A DNA stretch of 64,000 nt from Enterobacter phage KKP_3711, in sequence record PP579741.1; one strand, written 5' to 3'. Every line of letters starts with the position of its first letter. Within the stretch, counting starts at the first letter, position 1. Below are positions 21,363 to 63,393 of this stretch, in pieces. A program made the translations under genes and the position numbers. The notes beneath the pieces were generated by a model. It saw only the letters and a program-made list of their open reading frames with translations. It did not search any database and was not told the origin of the DNA.

Positions 21363-22326
21363 AGATAGTTGCTTTACTCACTAAGCGTTCCACAGACTCT
21401 TTGTCAAGTCCTTGAACGTCTGTTAAATATAATGCGAGTTCTTCTAATGTGGTTTTGTTTTCTAGATTTAGCTTTGCGTCTTTCGAGACTTTGGTGTTGA
21501 TCTTCTTGTCTAATAGATCTGACCCCTTTAGCTTCTTTAGTTCGGAAACATCACCTTCTACTTCATAAATAACACGATCATAAGGATCTGGAAGTAGTTC
21601 ATCATTAATAGTTACTGTCTTACGTATAAGTTGAGGAAGATCTCCTAACTCAATCCATTTATACTCTAAAGTTTCAGTATCAATTATCAAGCATCCATTA
21701 GTATTTTTTGTTCTTTCTCTGTGGAAAGATGTAGTTAATGGTGAGCCAGGATAAAGTAGAGTTAATGAATCGTTAATTTGCTGAGTATTCTGATAACTAT
21801 GTAAGTCGCCAGCTACTACTAGCTTATAGCCATGTTCAGCAAACTTATTTAAGTCTATTTCTGGTTGTACATGCGGAGGGATTGATCCGCGTACATGTGT
21901 GAAACATAACTTACTTTTTGCAGGTTCCCATGTTTTCTTATGGAGATCTGCGTAATCTATAACATCCCAATCATGAAGTCTCTTATTTCTCAAGAGTCTC
22001 CATCTACCATTTGTAGAATCTTTAATAGCATCACTAAGATGTGTTAGACAGGATATAGTTTTTGATAACATCTCATGATTGCCTGTATAAATACGGCCTT
22101 CATGCGTCATACTTTGTAGAAATGCAAATAACAGCTCTAGTTCTTCTGTGGAAGGGTTTGCTACGTCTAGAATATCACCGCCAATAATATGTAAATCACA
22201 ATTATATTCGATGAATATCTTATTAAAACGTTCAGCAAGCATTAAGAATCTGTTCTTTTGCCATTCCTTAGGAACATTCTTTTGTCCTAGTTTAATATGA
22301 TGGTCAGCAGAGAATAATATTTTCAT
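21349..22326 (-). CDS. SbcD/Mre11-like nuclease (T5 D12-like), 325 aa
   Basis: Calcineurin-like phosphoesterase motifs (FSADHHI, GGDILD, GNHE). It overlaps the D13 start. Confidence 0.8.
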   Translation of the reverse strand: MKILFSADHHIKLGQKNVPKEWQKNRFLMLAERFNKIFIEYNCDLHIIGGDILDVANPSTEELELLFAFLQSMTHEGRIYTGNHEMLSKTISCLTHLSDAIKDSTNGRWRLLRNKRLHDWDVIDYADLHKKTWEPAKSKLCFTHVRGSIPPHVQPEIDLNKFAEHGYKLVVAGDLHSYQNTQQINDSLTLLYPGSPLTTSFHRERTKNTNGCLIIDTETLEYKWIELGDLPQLIRKTVTINDELLPDPYDRVIYEVEGDVSELKKLKGSDLLDKKINTKVSKDAKLNLENKTTLEELALYLTDVQGLDKESVERLVSKATIYVRD

Positions 22327-31283: not shown

Positions 31284-32039
31284 TTATCCTTTAGTATTTT
31301 CGATTAATTCGTTAATAGAGATGACAGGAATGTCATACTCTAGAGCTTTAAGATATGAAGAGGAGCTACGTTTGCTCTCATCTTCGCAGATCAAATATTT
31401 GACATCTTTTGTCACAGATTTCTTAACTGTGAACCCAAGAGATTCCAAATGTGAACTGGCGTCTGTCCTGTTCTTGAAATCTTTCAGGCTACCAGTAATG
31501 CAAATGATAATACCGTTAGATTGAGAAATTGGTGCCGTAACATTAGTTGACGTTTTACCAAATTTCCAAGGTACTTCCATTATATCCTTGCCAACAAGTG
31601 AATCTTTCCATGATTTAAGATTTTCACCTGCCTTGCCGTCTGCTTTAACATCTTCCAGATTATTAAAGTTAACAGCTAGCTTCCTTGCAGCAACTTCACC
31701 GATCAAAGGAATACCGAGCGATCCTAGGAATTGACCGAATTCCATTTCTCCATGAAGTTTTTCTTCCAGTTCCTTTGCTAGCTTGTCTCCAGTTTTTACA
31801 CCTACTGCTTCATGCAAATCATCCAGAGTTACATAAAACAGTTCAGAAATCCTTACAAGTCCTAGCTTCTCAATAGTAGCTGGGCCAAAGCCTTTTAACT
31901 TCATCTTTTTACAGAAGTTCTCTAATAACTTTGAGGATTGTGCAGGACAGGATTCTGAATTACGACAGAATAGCTGAGCATTTACTAATTCCAACTTACC
32001 ACCACAAGAGGGGCAAGAGGTTGGCATTTCGATTTTCAT
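31284..32039 (-). CDS. ligB: NAD-dependent DNA ligase, subunit B (Zn finger, HhH, BRCT), 251 aa
   Basis: LigA-type zinc finger CPSCGGKLE...CRNSESCPAQ, HhH (GFGPATIEKL) and a C-terminal BRCT (ICITGSL...). Confidence 0.75.
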   Translation of the reverse strand: MKIEMPTSCPSCGGKLELVNAQLFCRNSESCPAQSSKLLENFCKKMKLKGFGPATIEKLGLVRISELFYVTLDDLHEAVGVKTGDKLAKELEEKLHGEMEFGQFLGSLGIPLIGEVAARKLAVNFNNLEDVKADGKAGENLKSWKDSLVGKDIMEVPWKFGKTSTNVTAPISQSNGIIICITGSLKDFKNRTDASSHLESLGFTVKKSVTKDVKYLICEDESKRSSSSYLKALEYDIPVISINELIENTKG

Positions 32040-32228
32040 TTACTCGTTGTTGCCTCTTCAATTTATATAAATATTATAGCAATAATTTTGACTCTGAGCA
32101 ACTACATTTTTAAAGTATTTGCTTGAGGCTTATTGCTTTGAGAGGTTATCCCGAATCAGTGAATATAGTATATACCTCTGATTCGAGAAAGTCAATTGTA
32201 GTTTATTTTTCTGGATAAGAAATCGGGG

Positions 32229-33194
32229 TTAATCAACTCGTTCAACAATTTTTGGAATAACACCACCAGAACGAATTACCCTGACTTGACATCCTAACTC
32301 TAAACCTAGGGCATTGATATAATCAATGTTGTTAAGGGTAGCTTTTGTAATCCTAGCATCATCAATAACTATTTCTTCGAAATGACCTACTGGAGTTACT
32401 TTACCAGATTTACCTACATCCCATGTTACTGCTAGTAATGTAGTAACTTCACCTTGTTCATCAACTTTGATAGCATAGGCTCCACGAGGGAACTTATTAG
32501 TCCAACCTAAACGATTAAACTCATTATTGCTATTAAGTCTGACTACTCTACCGTCTGACGGGAACCAAGATAATCTATTAGTCCCTAATACACTAATAAA
32601 GCCATGATTTTCCAGCCACTGCATATCTTCGGTATATGTTCCATGGCAACCCACCTTTCCAACTTCACACTGAATACCATATGCTACGAAAGTAAGTTCA
32701 GCTTCATCAATACGATTTTGGAATTCTTTGGGATCTTTAAGACCCATAGCACCAGAAGCATAGTTTCGCATATTTTCTACTGGTTTAGTAACGGTAACTT
32801 CACCAGTAATTTGAGTTGGAACTTTCTGACTGATAGATAATGGGATATTCAGAAGTTTGGCATTTTCTGTAACATCACGTCCTTTAATACCATCACCGCG
32901 AGTTAGTACTTGAACTAAACGCCCACCAATATACAGTAAAGATATTGCGCATCCATCTAGCTTAGCTGTTTCTACCTGGTCTAGTGACTTAAAGGGTACT
33001 TCATCACCACGATCGAAATATACTTTTTGCAAGGAATACATGCGGTATAAGTGAGGTACATCACCAGTCGGACCGATGGAACCTTCCGCTTGAGGAAAAC
33101 GTTTTACTAGACAATCATATTCTTCATCAGAAATAATTGCCATACCATTGTAATATGTTTCCTGGCACTGCTCAATAAAGCTCTTTACGTTCAC
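32229..33194 (-). CDS. ligA: NAD-dependent DNA ligase, subunit A (adenylation and OB domains), 321 aa
   Basis: KxDG adenylation motif (ETAKLDGCAISLLY) plus further ligase motifs. It is separated from ligB by a 189-bp spacer. Confidence 0.8.
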   Translation of the reverse strand: MNVKSFIEQCQETYYNGMAIISDEEYDCLVKRFPQAEGSIGPTGDVPHLYRMYSLQKVYFDRGDEVPFKSLDQVETAKLDGCAISLLYIGGRLVQVLTRGDGIKGRDVTENAKLLNIPLSISQKVPTQITGEVTVTKPVENMRNYASGAMGLKDPKEFQNRIDEAELTFVAYGIQCEVGKVGCHGTYTEDMQWLENHGFISVLGTNRLSWFPSDGRVVRLNSNNEFNRLGWTNKFPRGAYAIKVDEQGEVTTLLAVTWDVGKSGKVTPVGHFEEIVIDDARITKATLNNIDYINALGLELGCQVRVIRSGGVIPKIVERVD

Positions 33195-39261: not shown

Positions 39262-39278
39262 TAATATTTCCTTCCGGT

Positions 39279-39313
39279 GAAGAAAAATAAAGCCATAACA
39301 ACATTATTATGGC
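39279..39313 (-). terminator. rho-independent terminator on the - strand
   Basis: GCCATAA-N8-TTATGGC hairpin followed by TTTATTTTTCTTC on the - strand. It ends the ncRNA-like unit that starts at the promoter 40431-40459. Confidence 0.55.
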
Positions 39314-40423
39314 ATACACAAAAGAACTACCAATATACTCATTAATCGTGGGATTAATAGTACCCTGCTTTCTGGCTACGCATCATGCTGCATTGCACAA
39401 ACATGAAGAAGATCTAATATCTAGTTTCACCTTACTCGCACATCCACTTAATGGGTGTTTCTTAATTTCCAGTATAATCCGATATTTTGCGGTCGATGGT
39501 AGACAAACCTTGATTGATACTGTCCCATAACTTTAAGTGGGGAAGTTTCATGCACTGTTCCTTGTTAGTTATCACCCTAATCATGTATAACCACGCTCTT
39601 GAATTAGTCGACGGGGAAAGCCGGCAAGCATCTCTCCCTCAGTCCAGAACCTCAGATCCCATAGCTAGTACGACGTTTTCCTAAAGTGCTTTTAGGTCAG
39701 TCTTGGCATTCAGCACCGTCTCTTGCTTATCACATATATTCAGGGGTTCGCACCCTTCGTAAAGACAGTTATCATCCTAATAGGTATGAAAACTCTGCCC
39801 CTAATATGTAGCTCAGCTTTACTCCCAGTACTAGCGTGATCAGGCCAATTTTTCCTCCCATCCCGGTCGGCACGCCCCGTTGCTTATGGTCGGGGAAGAC
39901 TCGTGGGTTTCTGCGACTTGAATCGATCTTATCTTCTTCGAAATACTTCTGCACATCATTGTCCCACAGACTTACGAGAGGTCATTGAACGCCGAGTTAT
40001 GTTACGACGACAGAAGTATGCATACGCTTTAATATGCTGTTTTGTTAGGCTCCAGAGGCCGCCGGCACCACCGGTCGATCTGCTCCTCGGACTTGTAAGG
40101 TGTAAACACTCGAACGCATCCTCTAACCCACATGTGCGCTTGACTCTACAGCTTTTCACATGTACTTATCACCATTGCATCCCATGCTCAGGTCTTCAAT
40201 CCGTCCGTCTAGCAACTCGTCTCTCATTATTGGATTTGCGGTCGAATAATAAGTTCTTAGCTCTAGAGTTTCAGAAGGTCGTAAAGCTTTTCCCTCAGGT
40301 CTACTTTACAATTTTTGACTTATATAATTGGTTGAGTATGAAATAGCTCTACGATTGAATTAACCCCCGTAAGTGAGCACGTATTTCATAGAAATTTACT
40401 TTAGGTATAATCTCCTCAACTGA
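39285..40423 (-). ncRNA. candidate ~1.1 kb non-coding transcript (no plausible ORF, GC-elevated) between a T5-type promoter and a terminator
   Basis: Promoter at 40431-40459 (TTGCCA-N17-TATAAT with the conserved downstream element) and terminator at 39279-39313. Read by eye, the segment is about 48-52% GC against about 38% for the surrounding genome. Six-frame ORFs here are short and non-protein-like (Cys/His/Arg-rich). The longest - strand ORF with an ATG near the transcript start is 9 codons. Confidence 0.4.
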
Positions 40424-40430
40424 TACAAAT

Positions 40431-40459
40431 ATTATACCTAAAATTAATCTCATTGGCAA
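40431..40459 (-). promoter_or_regulatory. T5 early-type promoter on the - strand (TTGCCA-N17-TATAAT)
   Basis: -10 corresponds to plus 40431-40436 and -35 to plus 40454-40459. The transcribed-strand downstream sequence ATTTGTATCAGTTGAGGAG matches the downstream consensus of the other early promoters. Confidence 0.55.
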
Positions 40460-40489
40460 CTAAAATTTTAAAATGATGATCGGACAGCA

Positions 40490-40528
40490 TAAAAAGACCC
40501 TGTAAACCAATTTAGTCTACAGGGTCTA
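40490..40528 (-). terminator. rho-independent terminator on the - strand (10-bp stem)
   Basis: AGACCCTGTA-N13-TACAGGGTCT hairpin followed by TTTTTA on the - strand. It lies immediately upstream of promoter 40431-40459. Confidence 0.6.
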
Positions 40529-40534
40529 ACGGAT

Positions 40535-40741
40535 TTAAAAGGGTACTACCACTTTATCCAATGGATTGACATACAACCATTCAGCAGTGGTAGCGTAGAT
40601 AGTGTTAAAGTCACTGCCAAGGGCTTCTTTGTAACCTTTCAATCTGTATTGAAATCGATAACACCAAAAGCCTTCTTTATTCATGAATATATCCCACTCA
40701 CTTCTCATTACTGTACTTATCCATAAATTTGTCAAAAGCAA
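40535..40741 (-). CDS. hypothetical small protein, 68 aa
   Basis: ORF downstream of the Sir2-like gene. No motif. Confidence 0.35.
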   Translation of the reverse strand: MLLTNLWISTVMRSEWDIFMNKEGFWCYRFQYRLKGYKEALGSDFNTIYATTAEWLYVNPLDKVVVPF

Positions 40742-40857
40742 GCTGCCGGAGATGGGATTGTTCAGAATAAGAAATAATTAGACGAGTTTCTTCCATTGAA
40801 AGATTGAATCCATGTTCTAGTTTATTTTCTAATTCTCTAACTCTATATTCTAAAACC

Positions 40858-41670
40858 TCATTTATTGGCAATATATGGTCTCCCTTCTAAATGTGCTTCT
40901 ACTCGTTCAATAAACTCTGGATCGCTAAAAGCATCCACAGCACCCTTATACCAGTAAGGAATTCCTCGCTCCTCTAGCTGATACATATCACTACGAGTCA
41001 TACCAGCGTAATCTACTTCACTGGCTTTGGTACTATCATGATAGTTAACTACCATCAGTTTAGCACCTGTTCTGTTCAACACAGGGAACAGATCCCAATA
41101 GAAGTTAATTACTTGGTTAGACGCCCCAACGATAATAACCATGTCTTCACTAGTAATATCATCGAAAGTTTCGTACATATCTTTATACGCTGGAGCTGCT
41201 TCTCCAAAGAAGATAACGTTGGGTTTGCACCAGTCATAGTCATCTGGGTCAATCTCATTATAACCAACATCAATGACCTTTTTTTGTTGCGTAAATGCAT
41301 CTTGGACAACGATTTCTTTTAGATACCCATGGATGTGAAGCACTTTATCCCTTGGAATACCTGCACGCTCTAGCAAATCATCCACGTTAGTAGTAAGGTT
41401 AACTACTTTACCCAAAGGGTAGCGTTTATACCATTCTGCAATGCGTAGATGTGCTAGGTTAGGCTCTACAGAGGCAAGCTCCTGACGACGCTTGTTGTAG
41501 AACATATGGGTCTTATGGTAGAAATTGCCACGAAAGGCATGAATGTCACACACTTCTTCAATGTTATACTCATCCCACATAGCTTTACCAGTTGCAGTAT
41601 CCGTACGAAAAGCACGGATACCACTTTCTACACTAAGACCTGCCCCACTGATAAATAACACTCTACGCAT
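40858..41670 (-). CDS. Sir2-family (sirtuin-like) NAD-dependent protein, 270 aa, without the Zn ribbon
   Basis: GAGLSVESGIRAFR matches the sirtuin GAGIS.ESGIPDFR motif. Also present are P..AH..L, the TQNID-like TTNVDDLLERAG, HIHG, FFGE and a VGAS(T)..V C-terminal Rossmann motif. There is no CxxC...CxxC module. Confidence 0.65.
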   Translation of the reverse strand: MRRVLFISGAGLSVESGIRAFRTDTATGKAMWDEYNIEEVCDIHAFRGNFYHKTHMFYNKRRQELASVEPNLAHLRIAEWYKRYPLGKVVNLTTNVDDLLERAGIPRDKVLHIHGYLKEIVVQDAFTQQKKVIDVGYNEIDPDDYDWCKPNVIFFGEAAPAYKDMYETFDDITSEDMVIIVGASNQVINFYWDLFPVLNRTGAKLMVVNYHDSTKASEVDYAGMTRSDMYQLEERGIPYWYKGAVDAFSDPEFIERVEAHLEGRPYIANK

Positions 41671-41679
41671 ATCATTTCC

Positions 41680-41961
41680 TTAGTCTTTCAAATTAATTTG
41701 AATATTGTCCGTCTGTCCCATGCTAGCTTCTTCTTCATTAATTCGAATCTGAAGGAAGTCTACTAGCTGTTCTGCTGGAATTACCGGTACATAATTTTCA
41801 TCTTGTGCAGCATTTTCTCGCTGACCTTCTACAGCAGATTCTACCGCGCGCAGCAGAGATAGAAATGCATCACGACGACCTGTAATATACATGTTATTCA
41901 TAGCAGTTTTCAGTTCGTTTACAATTTCTGCTGGAGACTGATCAATATTAGTGTTTTCCAT
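41680..41961 (-). CDS. hypothetical protein, 93 aa
   Basis: ORF only. Confidence 0.4.
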   Translation of the reverse strand: MENTNIDQSPAEIVNELKTAMNNMYITGRRDAFLSLLRAVESAVEGQRENAAQDENYVPVIPAEQLVDFLQIRINEEEASMGQTDNIQINLKD

Positions 41962-42463
41962 CTTTAATCCTCTGTTTTAAAATTTCTACATCTTCATCGG
42001 TTAACCCGACTAATCCATTAATCATATGAGTATCAAATTCATACATATATGAACCTGCATCATCAATTACAATCCAGTCTTTTAAATCGAGAGTATTAAC
42101 TATTCGTAGAACTTCCCGACCTCTTCCTAAACCCCCACCTGTGTGTTTAGATACTAGGAGGGTTCGACTGGTAAGACCTAGAAAGTCAATCATACCTAAG
42201 TTTTCTAGGATATGCTTTTTAGTTTTAGGATCTCCCCAAAACCAACTTGATACCATCACTACTCTAGCGTCAATTTCATCTAAAAATTTCTGCAAACGTT
42301 TTAGTTTATATTTGCAGATAAAATCTCCACCTTTGAAAAATTTCAAGGAGGAAATATGTCCAATTCTCATTAAATCAAGGTCCGCGCGAGAATTTAAGAC
42401 ACCATCAATATCTAAAAAGACAACAGGTCTATTCATGTACTTTATCCACAAATTTAATTTCAC
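41948..42463 (-). CDS. HAD-superfamily phosphatase-like protein, 171 aa
   Basis: HAD motif I VVFLDIDGVLNS and a later VIDD acidic motif. This may be a deoxynucleotide phosphatase-type enzyme. Confidence 0.5.
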   Translation of the reverse strand: MKLNLWIKYMNRPVVFLDIDGVLNSRADLDLMRIGHISSLKFFKGGDFICKYKLKRLQKFLDEIDARVVMVSSWFWGDPKTKKHILENLGMIDFLGLTSRTLLVSKHTGGGLGRGREVLRIVNTLDLKDWIVIDDAGSYMYEFDTHMINGLVGLTDEDVEILKQRIKDGKH

Positions 42464-42680
42464 CTACTTCTACAGAACCAGACTTTTCTTTATACTTTAT
42501 AATTAAATCTTTATCGCCAAAACCATGATATCTAATACCAAAAAATTTAAACTTTTTGTTTTCATAGTCAGCAAATTCTACTGTTCTCTTAGAGAAGCCA
42601 CCTAATTTATCCAGTGCTAACTTTTCTTTACTAGGACTACCTAAGTGAGAATACTCAGGTTTTGGGAGTAAATCAGACAT
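42429..42680 (-). CDS. hypothetical protein, 83 aa
   Basis: ORF only. It is not NrdG-like because it has no CxxxCxxC motif. Confidence 0.4.
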   Translation of the reverse strand: MSDLLPKPEYSHLGSPSKEKLALDKLGGFSKRTVEFADYENKKFKFFGIRYHGFGDKDLIIKYKEKSGSVEVGEIKFVDKVHE

Positions 42681-42733
42681 ATAGTTTCCTTATCAATTTA
42701 TGTAATTATTATATCTAAATTTTACCTGTTTAG

Positions 42734-42773
42734 CAAATAAAATAAAACCCAGACTCGTTTCCAAGCCTGGGTT
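42734..42773 (-). terminator. rho-independent terminator on the - strand after nrdD
   Basis: AACCCAG-N14-CTGGGTT hairpin followed by TTATTTTATTT on the - strand. Confidence 0.55.
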
Positions 42774-58321: not shown

Positions 58322-59222
58322 ATAAATTAAAGAGAACAGCGAGCCGATTACGCTGATTCAATATGGATCTCAGATTGATGGGGTATTGAGTGAATAGAGT
58401 CGGTGAGTTGCAACGAGTAGTAATCATACCTCGAAAGTTGCGTCAAACTTGGGAGCTGTCCCGAAATCTCGTAAACTCTTCTCTTAATTTATTTATGGGG
58501 TGTCGAACTGACTTACGTAATAACACTGCCGTCCTAGTATAATAGGTATTATCATGGCGTAACTGCCGGAAGATGCAGGTTCGAATCCTGCGGTCGGAAA
58601 GAATTGGGTAACTCGGGCTTCTAACGGTGAAGCACTCGCAGACAGTTGCGCGCTGTCAAAACCATGCGGTAGTTGATTCCAGGCTAATCAACCTTAGAAG
58701 GAAAGTGTAACTACGGTTTACTTTGCCGGATTAAAGAAGAACTTTAGGCTTTAGCCTAGATAGTGAAGTTTTTCCTCCATGAGGAGTCGTTTTTCAAGCT
58801 ATCAGACGAAGAGAAAGATGCCCATTTTCTTCTCCCGTATAGACATGGGCATTATATATTGAAAAGCGGCGGTATGTAATTTGATGAGATCCCGTGGAAT
58901 TAGGATAGTGATTGGACTATCCTTATCCAATATATGTTCCAATCGAAAGTGGGAAATGGCGAAAGCCTCAATGGGACAGGTAAGATTATTAGTGAACCGC
59001 GGATAACACTATTAACGCCTGTGAAAATGCTAAGGGAGTCATGACCCTGATTGCGGCCCGATCACCAATGGGTGAATAACCACAAAATAGTCACCTTGAC
59101 TTTAACTGGAAAATATGTATGACAGCAGGGCTTAGACTTAATAAGGGGCGATCCCTCTACCTCCTGTCAATATTTTTAAGATTCTTTACGAGGAATCTTA
59201 AAAATATTAAAGAGGACTAAAT
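58322..59222 (+). ncRNA. ~0.9 kb transcribed stretch without an ORF; candidate structured stable RNA or RNAs, or degenerate tRNA-derived sequence
   Basis: No ORF of 60 aa or more on the + strand across ~900 bp immediately downstream of a consensus promoter. The stretch contains a canonical tRNA T-arm (GCAGG-TTCGAAT-CCTGC at 58564-58580) with no matching acceptor stem. It also has stable hairpins (GATGCCCAT...ATGGGCAT at ~58808-58840 and AAGATTC...GAATCTT at ~59170-59192) and looks GC-richer than its flanks. The next SD-led gene starts at 59223. Confidence 0.35.
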
Positions 59223-62998: not shown

Positions 62999-63313
62999 AT
63001 GATTCATATTCTTCGAATTACTGGTAATTATGCAGATGAATTTGATGTTTTCGGTATGCATTCTATTACAGAAGAACAGGCACAGTTTCTAGTAGAGACT
63101 GAAGGCAGATGCTTCACCCATAATAAAGAAGAAATTTATTTTGGGACTAACGAGTGTGTCCAGTTGAATGATCTTCATATTGAACTAGACACTATTACTA
63201 CAGAAGAAGCAGAAATAGTAATGCGAGTACTGAATATTCCAGATTTATCTTATGGTCTAATTGATCTTACAGATATAATCGAAGAAGCAATGGAATCTTC
63301 CACCGATAGCTGA
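62999..63313 (+). CDS. hypothetical acidic protein, 104 aa
   Basis: ORF only. Confidence 0.45.
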   Translation: MIHILRITGNYADEFDVFGMHSITEEQAQFLVETEGRCFTHNKEEIYFGTNECVQLNDLHIELDTITTEEAEIVMRVLNIPDLSYGLIDLTDIIEEAMESSTDS

Positions 63314-63393
63314 GATGGATTAGCGCTTGCCTGAAAAGCTCGAGAGACTGGATCGTTACCAGTTTGGTGGACCACTTACTAACTAGAGGTATT

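What the first reader, a model, noticed from the sequence alone, without database searches (positions are those of the whole stretch)
40858..41670. Sir2-family protein encoded by the phage
ORF 40858..41670 (-) carries the diagnostic sirtuin motifs (GAGLSVESGIRAFR, P..AH..L, TTNVDDLLERAG, HIHG, FFGE, VGASNQV) but not the Zn-ribbon Cys pairs. Bacterial Sir2 domains are NAD+-consuming effectors of Thoeris, DSR and other defence systems. A phage-borne Zn-less Sir2 could be an NAD-salvage or counter-defence enzyme, an ADP-ribosyltransferase or deacylase acting on host proteins, or an enzyme that reprograms NAD+ pools. It lies next to a HAD phosphatase and nrdD, both linked to nucleotide and cofactor metabolism. 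I believe T5 has been annotated with a Sir2-like ORF, but to my knowledge its function is unexplored.
Basis: partly seen in the sequence, partly recalled or inferred. Interest (0 to 1): 0.55.

Follow-up and report, generated by a model that had tools for sequence, protein, structure and literature searches.

The report
T5-type zinc-less phage sirtuin gene
This is a real sirtuin gene, the counterpart of gene T5.102 that T5-like phages have long been known to carry; it sits in a small operon with an RNA-repair-type phosphatase, and no paper I found has tested what it does.

Summary
ORF 40858..41670 (-) encodes a 270-aa Sir2-family protein (Pfam SIR2 E=1e-24; PHROG 2162 E=5e-113). A confident model (pLDDT 92) is closest to E. 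coli CobB. All the NAD-binding and catalytic motifs are present, and the four zinc cysteines are absent.

The gene is not new. It is the orthologue of T5.102, and 1002 phage records hold a match. The missing zinc site and the link to a HAD phosphatase are both already published.

The comparison with Thoeris/DSR defence enzymes fails: no defence model matches, and the nearest relatives are CobB/SIRT5-type deacylases. The neighbour that matters is not nrdD, which has its own terminator. It is a conserved three-gene cassette: a HAD_SAK_2 phosphatase, a small acidic protein and Sir2.

This phage clade has two derived features that occur together: loss of the zinc site, and TNVD in place of the canonical QNxD. 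It keeps the class III Tyr-x-x-Arg motif.

My best guess (about 0.38) follows Iyer et al. 2022: NAD+-dependent, Tpt1-like removal of phosphate from RNA ends. A CobB-like protein deacylase is almost as likely (about 0.33). No experimental work was found. Overall this is an ordinary member of a known, uncharacterised family.

The parts
40858..41670 (-). Sir2-family protein, 270 aa (stop codon included). Orthologue of T5.102 and member of the zinc-less 'TTNVD' phage sirtuin clade.
   Evidence: Pfam SIR2 E=1e-24; PHROG 2162 E=4.7e-113. AlphaFold model pLDDT 92.4, closest to CobB 1s5p (Foldseek E=1.9e-17, TM 0.70/0.83). Invariant across 66 relatives: G9 A10 G11 S13, F21 R22, Y58 R61, T94 N95 D97, H114 G115, F154 F155 E157, G182 S184, N209.
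41680..41961 (-). Small acidic protein, 93 aa (pI 4.2, net charge -10.5), lying between the HAD and Sir2 genes. It is the positionally conserved middle gene of the cassette; function unknown.
   Evidence: No Pfam, PHROG, NCBIfam or PADLOC family. Homologous ORFs (28-30% identity) lie at the same place in L074, L075 and L076. Charge.
41948..42436 (-). HAD-superfamily phosphatase of the RNA-repair type (HAD_SAK_2), 162 aa from the ATG at 42436. A 171-aa form from the GTG at 42463 is possible.
   Evidence: Pfam PF18143 E=2.4e-19. Motifs FLDIDGV, VSSW and (I/L)DDAG are conserved. Gene callers use the 162-aa form in relatives. Model pLDDT 91.5. It has only weak, non-significant fold resemblance to the T4 Pnkp and mammalian PNKP 3'-phosphatase domains.
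42429..42680 (-). First ORF of the operon, 83 aa, function unknown. It is dispensable, being absent from close relatives.
   Evidence: phrog_7953 E=9.4e-15. An AAGGAAA ribosome-binding site precedes its ATG, and its stop overlaps the HAD ATG. The stretch 42444-42677 is missing in L068 and L070.
42708..42736 (-). Promoter-like site of the Sir2 operon (TTGCTA, 17 nt, TATAAT).
   Evidence: 10 of 12 consensus matches; sequence read. T5 has an annotated promoter at the equivalent place, after the nrdD terminator. A consensus match only.
42746..42773 (-). Terminator-like hairpin directly after the nrdD stop codon. It separates nrdD from the Sir2 operon.
   Evidence: 12-bp stem with 6 G-C pairs, followed by a T run. 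T5 has an annotated terminator at the same position.
40535..40741 (-). Small ORF downstream of Sir2. Its conserved part is about 57 aa starting at M12.
   Evidence: phrog_5116 E=1.9e-10 over residues 11-56. The gene directly downstream of Sir2 in phage bombadil belongs to the same PHROG (E=7e-29).
40698..40871 (-). Possible 57-aa ORF with a TTG start, overlapping the Sir2 stop by 14 nt. Its reality is uncertain.
   Evidence: Listed mechanically. No family hit. Not called in relatives L066-L070.
40495..40527 (-). Strong terminator-like hairpin ending the Sir2 operon.
   Evidence: 15-bp stem with 6 G-C pairs, a 3-nt loop and a T run. The same inverted repeat was found independently (I2).

Best explanation
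SHOWN. The ORF encodes an intact sirtuin-fold, NAD+-binding enzyme, the orthologue of phage T5 gene T5.102. It belongs to a derived, phage-borne offshoot of the CobB/SIRT5-like (class III) sirtuins. That offshoot has lost the zinc-binding cysteines and changed the canonical QNxD motif to TNVD. It has kept the catalytic His114 and the Tyr58-x-x-Arg61 pair. The gene sits in its own small operon. The conserved core of that operon is a HAD_SAK_2 phosphatase, a small acidic protein, and Sir2.

INFERRED (most likely mechanism). The enzyme spends NAD+ to remove a phosphate monoester from an RNA end or junction, the way RNA 2'-phosphotransferase Tpt1/KptA does.
1. A 2'-phosphate (or terminal phosphate) oxygen attacks C1'' of NAD+ and displaces nicotinamide. 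This mirrors the attack by the acyl oxygen in normal sirtuin chemistry.
2. His114 then promotes attack by the ADP-ribose 2''-OH. [quoted passage not shown]
3. The HAD phosphatase either removes the other (3') phosphate from the RNA end or dephosphorylates the ADP-ribose-phosphate by-product.

The net effect would be to heal RNA or tRNA ends damaged or blocked by host nucleases or toxins. This would be an accessory, dispensable counter-measure. Which RNA is the target, and the role of the small acidic protein, are unknown.
For: - Sirtuin identity and fold.
- Catalytic inventory conserved across 66 relatives that are only 54-87% identical. His114 is present in 151 of 151 representatives.
- Partner gene: HAD_SAK_2, 'HAD domain in Swiss Army Knife RNA repair proteins', E=2.4e-19.
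- The HAD stays linked to Sir2 in two different gene orders. About 31 T5-like loci have it 0-0.5 kb downstream. The window's lineage has HAD, small ORF, Sir2 in that order upstream, including one locus with no nrdD called beside it. The window's HAD is only 36-41% identical to the downstream type, while Sir2 is 77% identical.
- Phage DT57C has lost most of Sir2 and has no HAD homologue or gene at that place.
- Independent contexts in other phage groups. In rV5 the order is calcineurin-like phosphoesterase, P-loop polynucleotide-kinase-like protein, T4-type RNA ligase 1, cREC 'cyclic-phosphate processing' domain, Sir2, MazG-like pyrophosphatase, next to a tRNA cluster. The same set is present in PVP-SE1 and in 12 further uncultured loci.
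- Iyer et al. 2022 reached this prediction from a survey of 21,191 viral proteomes, and add a third, jumbo-phage context with 2H, Nudix, cREC and PIN (PMC9503650).
- Tpt1's two-step chemistry (PMC11417386 abstract) is formally parallel to sirtuin chemistry (established knowledge).
- Three normally strict sirtuin features are altered in this clade: Gln to Thr94, loss of the zinc Cys tetrad, and Pro to Asn/Asp in the V-x-P substrate loop. Thr94 and zinc loss co-occur (odds ratio 35, p=4e-15, not corrected for phylogeny). This suggests a changed substrate rather than a plain copy of CobB.
Against: - No biochemical or genetic data exist for any member.
- The residues lining CobB's acyl-lysine pocket (A76, Y92, R95, I131, V187) correspond to C41, Y58, R61, V96 and V152. 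All are invariant in the phage clade. An enzyme that still binds an acidic acyl-lysine would look just like this.
- The family is acidic: median pI 5.2, net charge about -12. That resembles the CobB core (-10) and is not what is usual for an RNA-binding enzyme.
- T5 (bases 9-111 kb) and this window encode no homologue of the rV5-type RNA ligase, kinase, cREC or metallophosphoesterase. No RNA ligase is annotated in T5. A classical heal-and-seal pathway is therefore incomplete in T5-like phages.
- In a Vibrio-phage-like relative the neighbour is NAMPT. That fits any NAD+-consuming role.
- About 14 of 64 loci showed none of the partners I searched for.
- Gene neighbourhood in densely packed phage early regions is weak evidence, and most T5-like loci share it by descent.
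- The fold resemblance of the HAD to polynucleotide 3'-phosphatases is not statistically significant.
Confidence: 0.38

Rival explanations
1. It does what its closest relatives do. It is a CobB-like NAD+-dependent protein lysine deacylase (deacetylase, desuccinylase or demalonylase) that strips acyl groups from host or phage proteins during infection. Possible targets are metabolic enzymes, the transcription or translation machinery, or the catalytic lysines of ligases.
For: - The best sequence and fold relatives are all protein deacylases: CobB, Sir2Af1/2, Sir2Tm, SIRT5.
- NCBIfam's best models are 'NAD-dependent protein deacylase'.
- The class III Tyr-x-x-Arg pair, which recognises acidic acyl groups, aligns exactly with CobB Y92/R95 and is invariant. 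So are the equivalents of CobB's engineered acyl-pocket residues and the FGE motif.
- The protein is acidic, like CobB.
- This is the standing database annotation and the reading of Skliros et al. 2016 (PMC5107563).
Against: - Scores against the CobB models are far below their curated cut-offs: 113 bits against 243, and 101 against 320.
- Three normally strict sirtuin features are changed: Gln to Thr in QNxD, the zinc site lost, and the Pro of the V-x-P peptide-binding loop lost.
- The recurrent partners are phosphoesterases, an RNA ligase, a kinase and a cyclic-phosphate domain, not protein-modifying enzymes.
- E. coli, a host of the related phages, has its own CobB (PDB 1s5p).
Confidence: 0.33
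2. It acts on a soluble nucleotide rather than on RNA or protein. Together with the HAD phosphatase it would make or destroy an NAD+- or ADP-ribose-derived small molecule. Examples would be an ADP-ribose phosphate, an immune signalling nucleotide, or an unusual riboside made by base exchange or phosphoribosyl transfer.
For: - The partner enzymes across lineages (HAD, calcineurin-like phosphoesterase, MazG-like or Nudix pyrophosphatase, cREC, kinase) could equally well process nucleotides (PMC9503650).
- An acidic protein suits a small-molecule substrate.
- NAMPT lies next to Sir2 in a Vibrio-phage-like relative.
- T5-like phages invest in NAD+ supply and use: NARP3 in the phage Bas30 (PMC13464706), and a split NAD-dependent DNA ligase in this window at 31299-33191.
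- CobB was first found through a phosphoribosyltransferase-like activity in cobalamin synthesis (as cited in PMC9503650).
Against: - No candidate metabolite is known.
- The RNA ligase in the rV5-type operon points to RNA rather than to nucleotides.
- The conserved acyl-lysine-type pocket is not explained.
Confidence: 0.1
3. It is an NAD+ glycohydrolase or a protein ADP-ribosyltransferase that reprograms host NAD+ pools or host proteins. These were the first reader's options.
For: - Some sirtuins ADP-ribosylate proteins or hydrolyse NAD+ (PMC9503650).
- The altered Gln-to-Thr94 near the nicotinamide ribose could shift the chemistry (inference).
- T5.102 is annotated 'NAD-dependent deacetylase, ADP-ribosylase, transcription regulator' from an InterPro match only.
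Against: - No resemblance to the NADase-type SIR2 domains of defence systems.
- There is no adjacent macrodomain, as there is in the ADP-ribosylating SirTM systems.
- Draining NAD+ would work against a phage that needs it for its own NAD-dependent DNA ligase and whose relatives rebuild NAD+.
- The catalytic His and the acyl pocket are fully conserved. A simple NADase would not obviously need them.
Confidence: 0.1
4. It is a phage-carried defence or superinfection-exclusion effector of the Thoeris, DSR or Sir2-HerA kind, which kills the cell or blocks rival phages by depleting NAD+.
For: Phages do sometimes carry defence systems, and a small subset of viral sirtuins is paired with HerA (PMC9503650).
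Against: - No PADLOC hit at E<=1.
- It belongs to Pfam SIR2 proper, and no other Pfam family matched.
- No defence SIR2 structure appears among the top 50 fold matches.
- No sensor or partner gene is present.
- The gene sits in the conserved early region of a strictly lytic phage type, at a fixed syntenic position in dozens of genomes.
Confidence: 0.03

Closest known systems
Phage T5 gene T5.102 (YP_006930) and its orthologues: PHROG 2162, 'Sir2 (NAD-dependent deacetylase)' of Demerecviridae, Vequintavirinae, Stephanstirmvirinae, KVP40-like and jumbo phages
   Same: - Full-length match to the family profile (E=4.7e-113).
- About 77% amino-acid identity to the T5 and Epseptimavirus proteins.
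- Same syntenic slot between nrdD and the origin-binding-protein gene.
- Same zinc-less TTNVDD and FYNxRR signature.
   Different: - In this lineage the HAD_SAK_2 gene lies upstream of Sir2, with a small acidic ORF between them. In T5 it lies downstream.
- The two DUF7415 genes of T5 are replaced by about 1.3 kb without a credible ORF.
- The closest record in the phage collection searched is only about 75% identical in DNA.
E. coli CobB (PDB 1s5p, 6rxj) and other class III sirtuins such as human SIRT5
   Same: - Same fold (Foldseek E=1.9e-17, TM 0.70/0.83, 27% identity).
- Shared GAGxS, FR, NxD, HxHG, FGE and GxS motifs.
- The Tyr-x-x-Arg pair aligns with CobB Y92/R95. The pocket residues A76, I131 and V187 correspond to invariant C41, V96 and V152.
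   Different: - No zinc cysteines.
- Thr in place of the Gln of QNxD.
- Asn/Asp in place of the Pro of the V-x-P loop.
- A TDTxSG insertion in the cofactor-binding loop and a conserved C-terminal helix (GAVDAF...VE.HLEG).
- Scores fall far below the curated CobB cut-offs.
- Phage-borne, with RNA-repair-type neighbours.
RNA 2'-phosphotransferase Tpt1/KptA
   Same: Proposed function only. [quoted passage not shown] Both are associated with RNA ligases and end-healing enzymes.
   Different: - Unrelated fold and no sequence similarity; Pfam finds only SIR2.
- The activity is untested for any sirtuin.
- The phage protein is acidic.
Defence-associated SIR2 NADases (Thoeris ThsA, DSR1/DSR2, Sir2-HerA, short pAgo Sir2-APAZ)
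   Same: A distant common Rossmann-type SIR2 superfamily, and use of NAD+.
   Different: - No hit to any PADLOC model.
- Absent from the top 50 structural matches.
- No sensor or partner domain.
- Encoded at a fixed place in a lytic phage's early region rather than in a host defence island.
Macrodomain-linked ADP-ribosylating sirtuins (SirTM)
   Same: A sirtuin fold used for ADP-ribosyl transfer rather than deacylation. This is a precedent for non-deacylase sirtuins (PMC9503650).
   Different: No macrodomain gene in or near the operon. The catalytic His is retained here.

Membership tests
Sirtuin / Sir2 family (Pfam PF02146) | Match to the family profile above its curated threshold | tested here: met
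   87.9 bits against a 24-bit cut-off, E=1e-24, profile positions 1-178 of 180.
Sirtuin / Sir2 family (Pfam PF02146) | Rossmann-fold large domain plus a small domain; nearest solved structures are sirtuins | tested here: met
   Model pLDDT 92.4, pTM 0.89. All of the top 50 PDB matches are sirtuins, led by CobB.
Sirtuin / Sir2 family (Pfam PF02146) | NAD-binding and catalytic motifs: GAGxS, FR, (Q)NxD, catalytic His in HG, FGE, GxS, N | tested here: met
   All are present and invariant in 66 relatives, except that the Gln of QNxD is an invariant Thr94.
Sirtuin / Sir2 family (Pfam PF02146) | Zinc ribbon with two Cys-x-x-Cys pairs in the small domain (typical, but not part of the catalytic centre) | tested here: not met
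   Only C41 and C148 are present, and no relative in the T5/rV5-type clade has the tetrad. Jumbo-phage relatives and CobB do have it. The three-stranded module is still predicted with pLDDT about 97.
Sirtuin / Sir2 family (Pfam PF02146) | NAD+-dependent deacylase or ADP-ribosyl-transfer activity | not testable with these tools
   Needs enzyme assays. No published assay of a phage member was found.
Class III sirtuins (CobB / SIRT5 type) | Tyr-x-x-Arg pair that binds acidic acyl groups | tested here: met
   Y58 and R61 are invariant. Y58 aligns with CobB Y92, as fixed by the Y92A mutant sequence of PDB 6rxs.
Class III sirtuins (CobB / SIRT5 type) | Reaches the curated score of the CobB protein-deacylase models (NCBIfam) | tested here: not met
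   113.4 bits against 243 (NF001753) and 100.6 against 320 (NF040867). It is a relative, not an equivalent.
Defence-associated SIR2 NADases (ThsA, DSR1/2, Sir2-HerA, Sir2-APAZ) | Match to a defence-system SIR2 model | tested here: not met
   No PADLOC family at E<=1.
Defence-associated SIR2 NADases (ThsA, DSR1/2, Sir2-HerA, Sir2-APAZ) | Fused or adjacent sensor or partner (SLOG, TIR, HerA, Argonaute/APAZ, long sensor domain) | tested here: not met
   A stand-alone 270-aa protein. Its neighbours are HAD_SAK_2 and small ORFs with no such domains.
Macrodomain-linked sirtuins (SirTM) | Operon partner with a macrodomain | tested here: not met
   No macrodomain among the operon ORFs. Iyer et al. also note its absence for this viral clade.
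Phage RNA-repair-associated sirtuin clade (Iyer, Burroughs, Anantharaman and Aravind 2022) | Phage-encoded stand-alone sirtuin in a conserved neighbourhood with RNA-end-processing enzymes (HAD_SAK in T5-like phages; RNA ligase, kinase, cREC and MazG in rV5-like phages) | tested here: met
   HAD_SAK_2 lies one small gene upstream. The same trio is found in L066-L070 and L074-L076. A downstream HAD is found in about 31 T5-like loci and in T5 itself. The rV5 and PVP-SE1 contexts were verified.
Phage RNA-repair-associated sirtuin clade (Iyer, Burroughs, Anantharaman and Aravind 2022) | Predicted Tpt1-like removal of RNA 2'-phosphate | not testable with these tools
   A prediction only. It needs RNA substrates and NAD+ in vitro, or yeast tpt1 complementation.
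Tpt1 / KptA RNA 2'-phosphotransferases | Homology to the Tpt1 family | tested here: not met
   Pfam reports only SIR2 at E<=1, and all top 50 fold matches are sirtuins. Any similarity is in proposed function, not in membership.
T5.102 orthologue group (PHROG 2162) | Full-length profile match and the conserved genomic position between nrdD and the origin-binding-protein gene | tested here: met
   E=4.7e-113 over residues 1-267. Synteny.

The most novel reading that the evidence does not exclude
The zinc-less TNVD sirtuins of T5-like, rV5-like and related phages are the first sirtuins whose substrate is RNA. They would be non-homologous functional analogues of Tpt1: they ADP-ribosylate and thereby remove 2'- or terminal phosphates.

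In T5-like phages, which lack an RNA ligase, they would work with the HAD_SAK_2 phosphatase and the small acidic protein as a ligase-independent kit. This kit would clean tRNA or mRNA 3' ends blocked by host immunity. Candidate lesions are 2',3'-cyclic or 2'-phosphate ends left by anticodon nucleases, and CCA ends pyrophosphorylated by toxSAS/CapRel-type effectors (PMC11559606, PMC9712102).

The link to those particular defences is my own speculation.
Probability: 0.3. Interest if true: 0.75.

Novelty: new member of a known kind. Interest (0 to 1): 0.3.

Why it matters
As it stands, this is one more copy of a gene annotated in T5 and now found in about a thousand phage genome records, so the finding adds little.

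What keeps it from being trivial is that no paper I found has tested the family's function. Meanwhile its sequence signature (zinc site lost, QNxD changed to TNVD, Tyr-x-x-Arg kept) and its faithful pairing with RNA-repair-type phosphoesterases point to something other than a spare host deacetylase.

If the RNA-directed reading is right, it would extend sirtuin chemistry from proteins to nucleic acids. It would also reveal a new phage counter-measure to RNA-targeting immunity.

If the deacylase reading is right, it would show that large lytic phages actively edit the host acyl-proteome.

Simple assays on an easily expressed 270-aa protein could settle either question.

Tried and rejected
- **Defence-type Sir2.** Scanned PADLOC and found no hit at E<=1. 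No defence SIR2 appears among the fold matches. Rejected.
- **Informative domain fusions.** Ten unusually long homologues from the 1.84-billion-protein representative search contain only tandem SIR2, WG repeats, LRR or unassigned sequence. All 24 homologues of the HAD are stand-alone. The apparent 'Sir2' PHROG 18062 that hits the HAD, and the RefSeq naming of T5.105 as Sir2, look like annotation artefacts. They may derive from the short DT57C-type 'defective' sir2 ORF.
- **RNA ligase or kinase in T5-like phages.** tblastn with the rV5 Rnl1, kinase, cREC, metallophosphoesterase and MazG-like proteins found nothing in T5 (9-111 kb) or in the window.
- **HAD structure.** The model is confident, but no PDB match reaches E<=0.001. 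The T4 Pnkp and mammalian PNKP 3'-phosphatase domains are merely the best HAD-type hits.
- **ORF-free, G+C-rich stretch 39262-40534 as a structured RNA.** Rfam gave nothing credible. Folding z-scores were +1.07 and +1.42. There is no DNA homologue in the phage or E. coli collections. Left unexplained.
- **Experimental literature.** Seven successful full-text searches found annotation and two computational papers, but no assay or knockout.
- **NARP3 (Bas30_86/87).** These turned out to be a NadR-like enzyme and a PnuC-like transporter, not the sirtuin.
- **tRNA adjacency.** The window's tRNA genes lie 17-23 kb away at 58.5-63.9 kb, unlike in rV5.
Full report
**1. The observation**

ORF 40858..41670 on the minus strand is open for 270 codons. 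It starts at an ATG preceded by an AAGGAAA ribosome-binding site.

The match to the Sir2 family is far beyond chance:
- Pfam PF02146 scores 87.9 bits against a 24-bit threshold, E=1e-24, covering almost the whole profile.
- PHROG 2162 'Sir2 (NAD-dependent deacetylase)' matches at E=4.7e-113.
- E. coli CobB is the best solved relative, at E=1.9e-18 for the sequence and 1.6e-30 for a 66-member family profile.
- An AlphaFold model built on that alignment is confident (pLDDT 92.4, pTM 0.89). It keeps a three-stranded module where the zinc ribbon normally sits.
- Its best PDB matches are CobB (E=1.9e-17, TM 0.70/0.83, 27% identity), then Sir2Af1, Sir2Tm and SIRT5.

**2. Where the window comes from, and how common the gene is**

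The window is a T5-like (Demerecviridae) phage. Gene order is PhoH, nrdD, Sir2 operon, origin-binding protein. A split NAD-dependent DNA ligase and a tRNA cluster lie further away.

No record in the phage collection is closer than about 73-75% in DNA. A 111-kb contig inside a Salmonella Bareilly assembly is 96% identical over the 5.7 kb compared, and metagenome contigs are about 98% identical.

The Sir2 protein has matches in 1002 phage records. These span T5-like, rV5/PVP-SE1-like, phi92-like, KVP40-like and jumbo phages. In T5 the gene is T5.102 (YP_006930), annotated from an InterPro match.

**3. What kind of sirtuin it is**

It is not the defence kind:
- No PADLOC model matches even at E<=1.
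- No defence SIR2 structure appears in the top 50 fold hits.
- There is no sensor or partner domain.

It is a relative of the class III deacylases, but not an equivalent. The best NCBIfam models are CobB-type deacylases, yet the scores (113 and 101 bits) are far under their curated cut-offs (243 and 320).

I used the engineered CobB mutants in the PDB as rulers. By that mapping:
- CobB Y92/R95, the acidic-acyl recognition pair, correspond to Y58/R61.
- CobB pocket residues A76, I131 and V187 correspond to C41, V96 and V152.
- All five are invariant across 66 relatives that are otherwise only 54-87% identical.
- The catalytic His114 is present in 151 of 151 representatives from a search of 1.84 billion proteins.

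Three normally strict sirtuin features are changed:
- The Gln of QNxD is an invariant Thr94.
- The Pro of the V-x-P substrate loop is Asn or Asp.
- The zinc cysteines are gone.

Jumbo-phage relatives (L063, L064) and CobB still have both Gln and the Cys tetrad. The T5-like, rV5-like and two more distant uncultured members (L061, L062) have neither.

Across 152 sequences the two traits are strongly associated: Gln with zinc 77, Thr without zinc 35, mixed states 19. The odds ratio is 35, p=4e-15. That figure is not corrected for shared ancestry. The window's protein therefore belongs to a derived, zinc-less 'TNVD' subclade.

**4. The surroundings**

The gene is not functionally tied to nrdD. A terminator-like hairpin follows the nrdD stop (42773..42746). 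A promoter-like TTGCTA-17-TATAAT follows that (42736..42708). A strong hairpin with a T run closes the unit at 40527..40495. T5 is annotated with the same terminator and promoter arrangement.

The operon reads:
- an 83-aa ORF
- a HAD phosphatase
- a 93-aa acidic ORF
- Sir2
- one or two small ORFs

Start and stop codons overlap or nearly abut.

The HAD is Pfam PF18143, 'HAD domain in Swiss Army Knife RNA repair proteins' (E=2.4e-19). Its catalytic motifs are intact.

In a survey of 64 loci that encode a relative of this Sir2:
- About 31 T5-like loci, T5 itself included, carry a HAD_SAK_2 gene just downstream of Sir2.
- The window's own lineage carries it upstream, in the order HAD, small ORF, Sir2.
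- One of those loci (L075) has no nrdD called between PhoH and HAD, yet keeps the trio.
- The middle ORF is homologous across these loci (28-30% identity), so the conserved unit is a three-gene cassette.
- DT57C retains only a 90-aa 'defective' sir2 and has no HAD at that place, so the cassette is dispensable there.

In Vequintavirinae the partners differ but share a theme. The order is calcineurin-like phosphoesterase, polynucleotide-kinase-like P-loop protein, T4-type RNA ligase 1, a 'cyclic-phosphate processing' cREC domain, Sir2, and a MazG-like pyrophosphatase. In rV5 this lies beside a tRNA cluster.

In a Vibrio-phage-like contig the neighbour is NAMPT, which recycles nicotinamide. About 14 loci showed none of the partners I searched for.

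**5. What is already published**

- Skliros et al. 2016 noted that the Sir2/CobB proteins of KVP40-type Vibrio phages lack the zinc ligands. They listed T5 among the carriers and proposed deacetylation of host enzymes such as acetyl-CoA synthetase (PMC5107563).
- Iyer, Burroughs, Anantharaman and Aravind 2022 found that most viral sirtuins form a distinct clade in RNA-repair neighbourhoods. They explicitly included a T5-like type with a 'Swiss-army-knife' HAD phosphatase. They proposed that the sirtuin removes RNA 2'-phosphates as KptA/Tpt1 does (PMC9503650, section 3.7.3).
- My context checks reproduce their description.
- I found no enzymology, structure or knockout for any phage member.

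**6. How it most likely works**

Two readings are close.

The RNA reading (0.38) rests on these points:
- The association with RNA-end-processing enzymes recurs and is rearrangement-proof.
- The altered substrate-facing features argue against a plain CobB copy.
- The chemistry is parallel. [quoted passage not shown] In sirtuins, an acyl oxygen makes the first attack and the His-activated 2'-OH makes the second (established knowledge).
- The partner sets fit either of two jobs: preparing the 2'-phosphate, or degrading the cyclic ADP-ribose phosphate by-product. Each set has a cyclic phosphodiesterase-like cREC or 2H, a phosphomonoesterase (HAD or calcineurin-like), and a pyrophosphatase (MazG or Nudix).

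The deacylase reading (0.33) rests on different points:
- The acyl-lysine pocket is fully conserved, including the acidic-acyl Tyr/Arg pair.
- The family has an acidic charge, median pI 5.2 and net charge about -12, like CobB.
- T5-like phages have no RNA ligase or kinase with which to complete a heal-and-seal pathway.

A small-molecule role (0.10), an NADase or protein ADP-ribosyltransferase role (0.10), and a defence-effector role (0.03) are less likely. The reasons are given under the rival explanations.

**7. Verdict**

The gene is a new member of a known, widely annotated but apparently uncharacterised family.

The useful corrections are:
- The enzyme is CobB-derived, not defence-type.
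- The meaningful partner is the HAD_SAK_2 and acidic-protein cassette, not nrdD.
- The zinc loss travels with a Gln-to-Thr change in the NAD-ribose motif.

Interest is modest (0.3). A specialist would not be surprised by the gene, but the function question is open and cheaply testable.

Noticed in passing
window 39262-40534: About 1.3 kb lies between the Sir2-operon terminator and the origin-binding-protein gene with no credible ORF. G+C rises to 45-49% against about 35-38% around it. On the minus strand it is framed by a strong promoter-like site (40459..40431, 11 of 12) and a terminator-like hairpin (39313..39292). Other T5-like phages have HAD_SAK_2 and two DUF7415 genes here. There is no Rfam family, no tRNA, no excess RNA structure (z +1.07 and +1.42), and no DNA homologue in the phage or E. 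coli collections. It is 99.7% conserved in close relatives. Unexplained; it could be a foreign insert, a decayed gene or an origin-related region.
   Followed up: partly
window 41131-41490 (codons ~61-180 of the Sir2 gene): Against the 96%-identical relative L067, 112 of the 116 nucleotide differences in Sir2 fall within nt 180-540 of the gene. The flanking genes are 96-99.7% identical. This looks like a recombination patch that swaps the central part of the enzyme (TTNVD, HxHG, the zinc-less beta module, FFGE) between alleles.
   Followed up: partly
window 41680-41961: A 93-aa strongly acidic protein (pI 4.2, net charge -10.5) matches no known family. It is positionally conserved and homologous (28-30% identity) between HAD and Sir2 in several uncultured T5-like contigs. 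It may be an adaptor or regulator of the cassette.
   Followed up: partly
L065 (phage DT57C) 3968-4240; L071 (T5) 21589-22095: DT57C keeps only a 90-aa 'defective' sir2 ORF and has no HAD gene at that place. PHROG 18062, named 'Sir2', matches the C-terminal half of the window's HAD phosphatase. RefSeq names T5.105, which is the HAD, 'Sir2 (NAD-dependent deacetylase)'. This looks like a propagated mis-annotation.
   Followed up: partly
window 42444-42677: The 83-aa first ORF of the operon (phrog_7953) is an insertion/deletion polymorphism. The stretch is missing from the roughly 98%-identical metagenome contigs L068 and L070.
   Followed up: partly
window 31299-33191: A split NAD+-dependent DNA ligase, LigB at 31299-32039 and LigA at 32235-33191, both on the minus strand. 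They are 65% and 68% identical to T5 LigB and LigA. This is a second NAD+-consuming enzyme on the same phage. A relative, Bas30, carries an NAD+-rebuilding NadR/PnuC pair (PMC13464706), which I did not look for in the window.
   Followed up: partly
whole window: The phage is a divergent Demerecviridae lineage with no close relative in the phage collection searched (best about 73-75% DNA identity). It is 96% identical, over the 5.7 kb compared, to a 111-kb contig filed inside a Salmonella enterica serovar Bareilly assembly (GCA_007266745.1). That contig is probably a phage co-assembled with its host.
   Followed up: partly
window 58528-58599 and 63300-63371: Two weak tRNA-like matches from Rfam (30.1 and 34.3 bits) were not called by ARAGORN. 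They lie within the tRNA cluster at 58.5-63.9 kb. T5 is annotated with several 'tRNA-like stable RNAs' in its own cluster.
   Followed up: no
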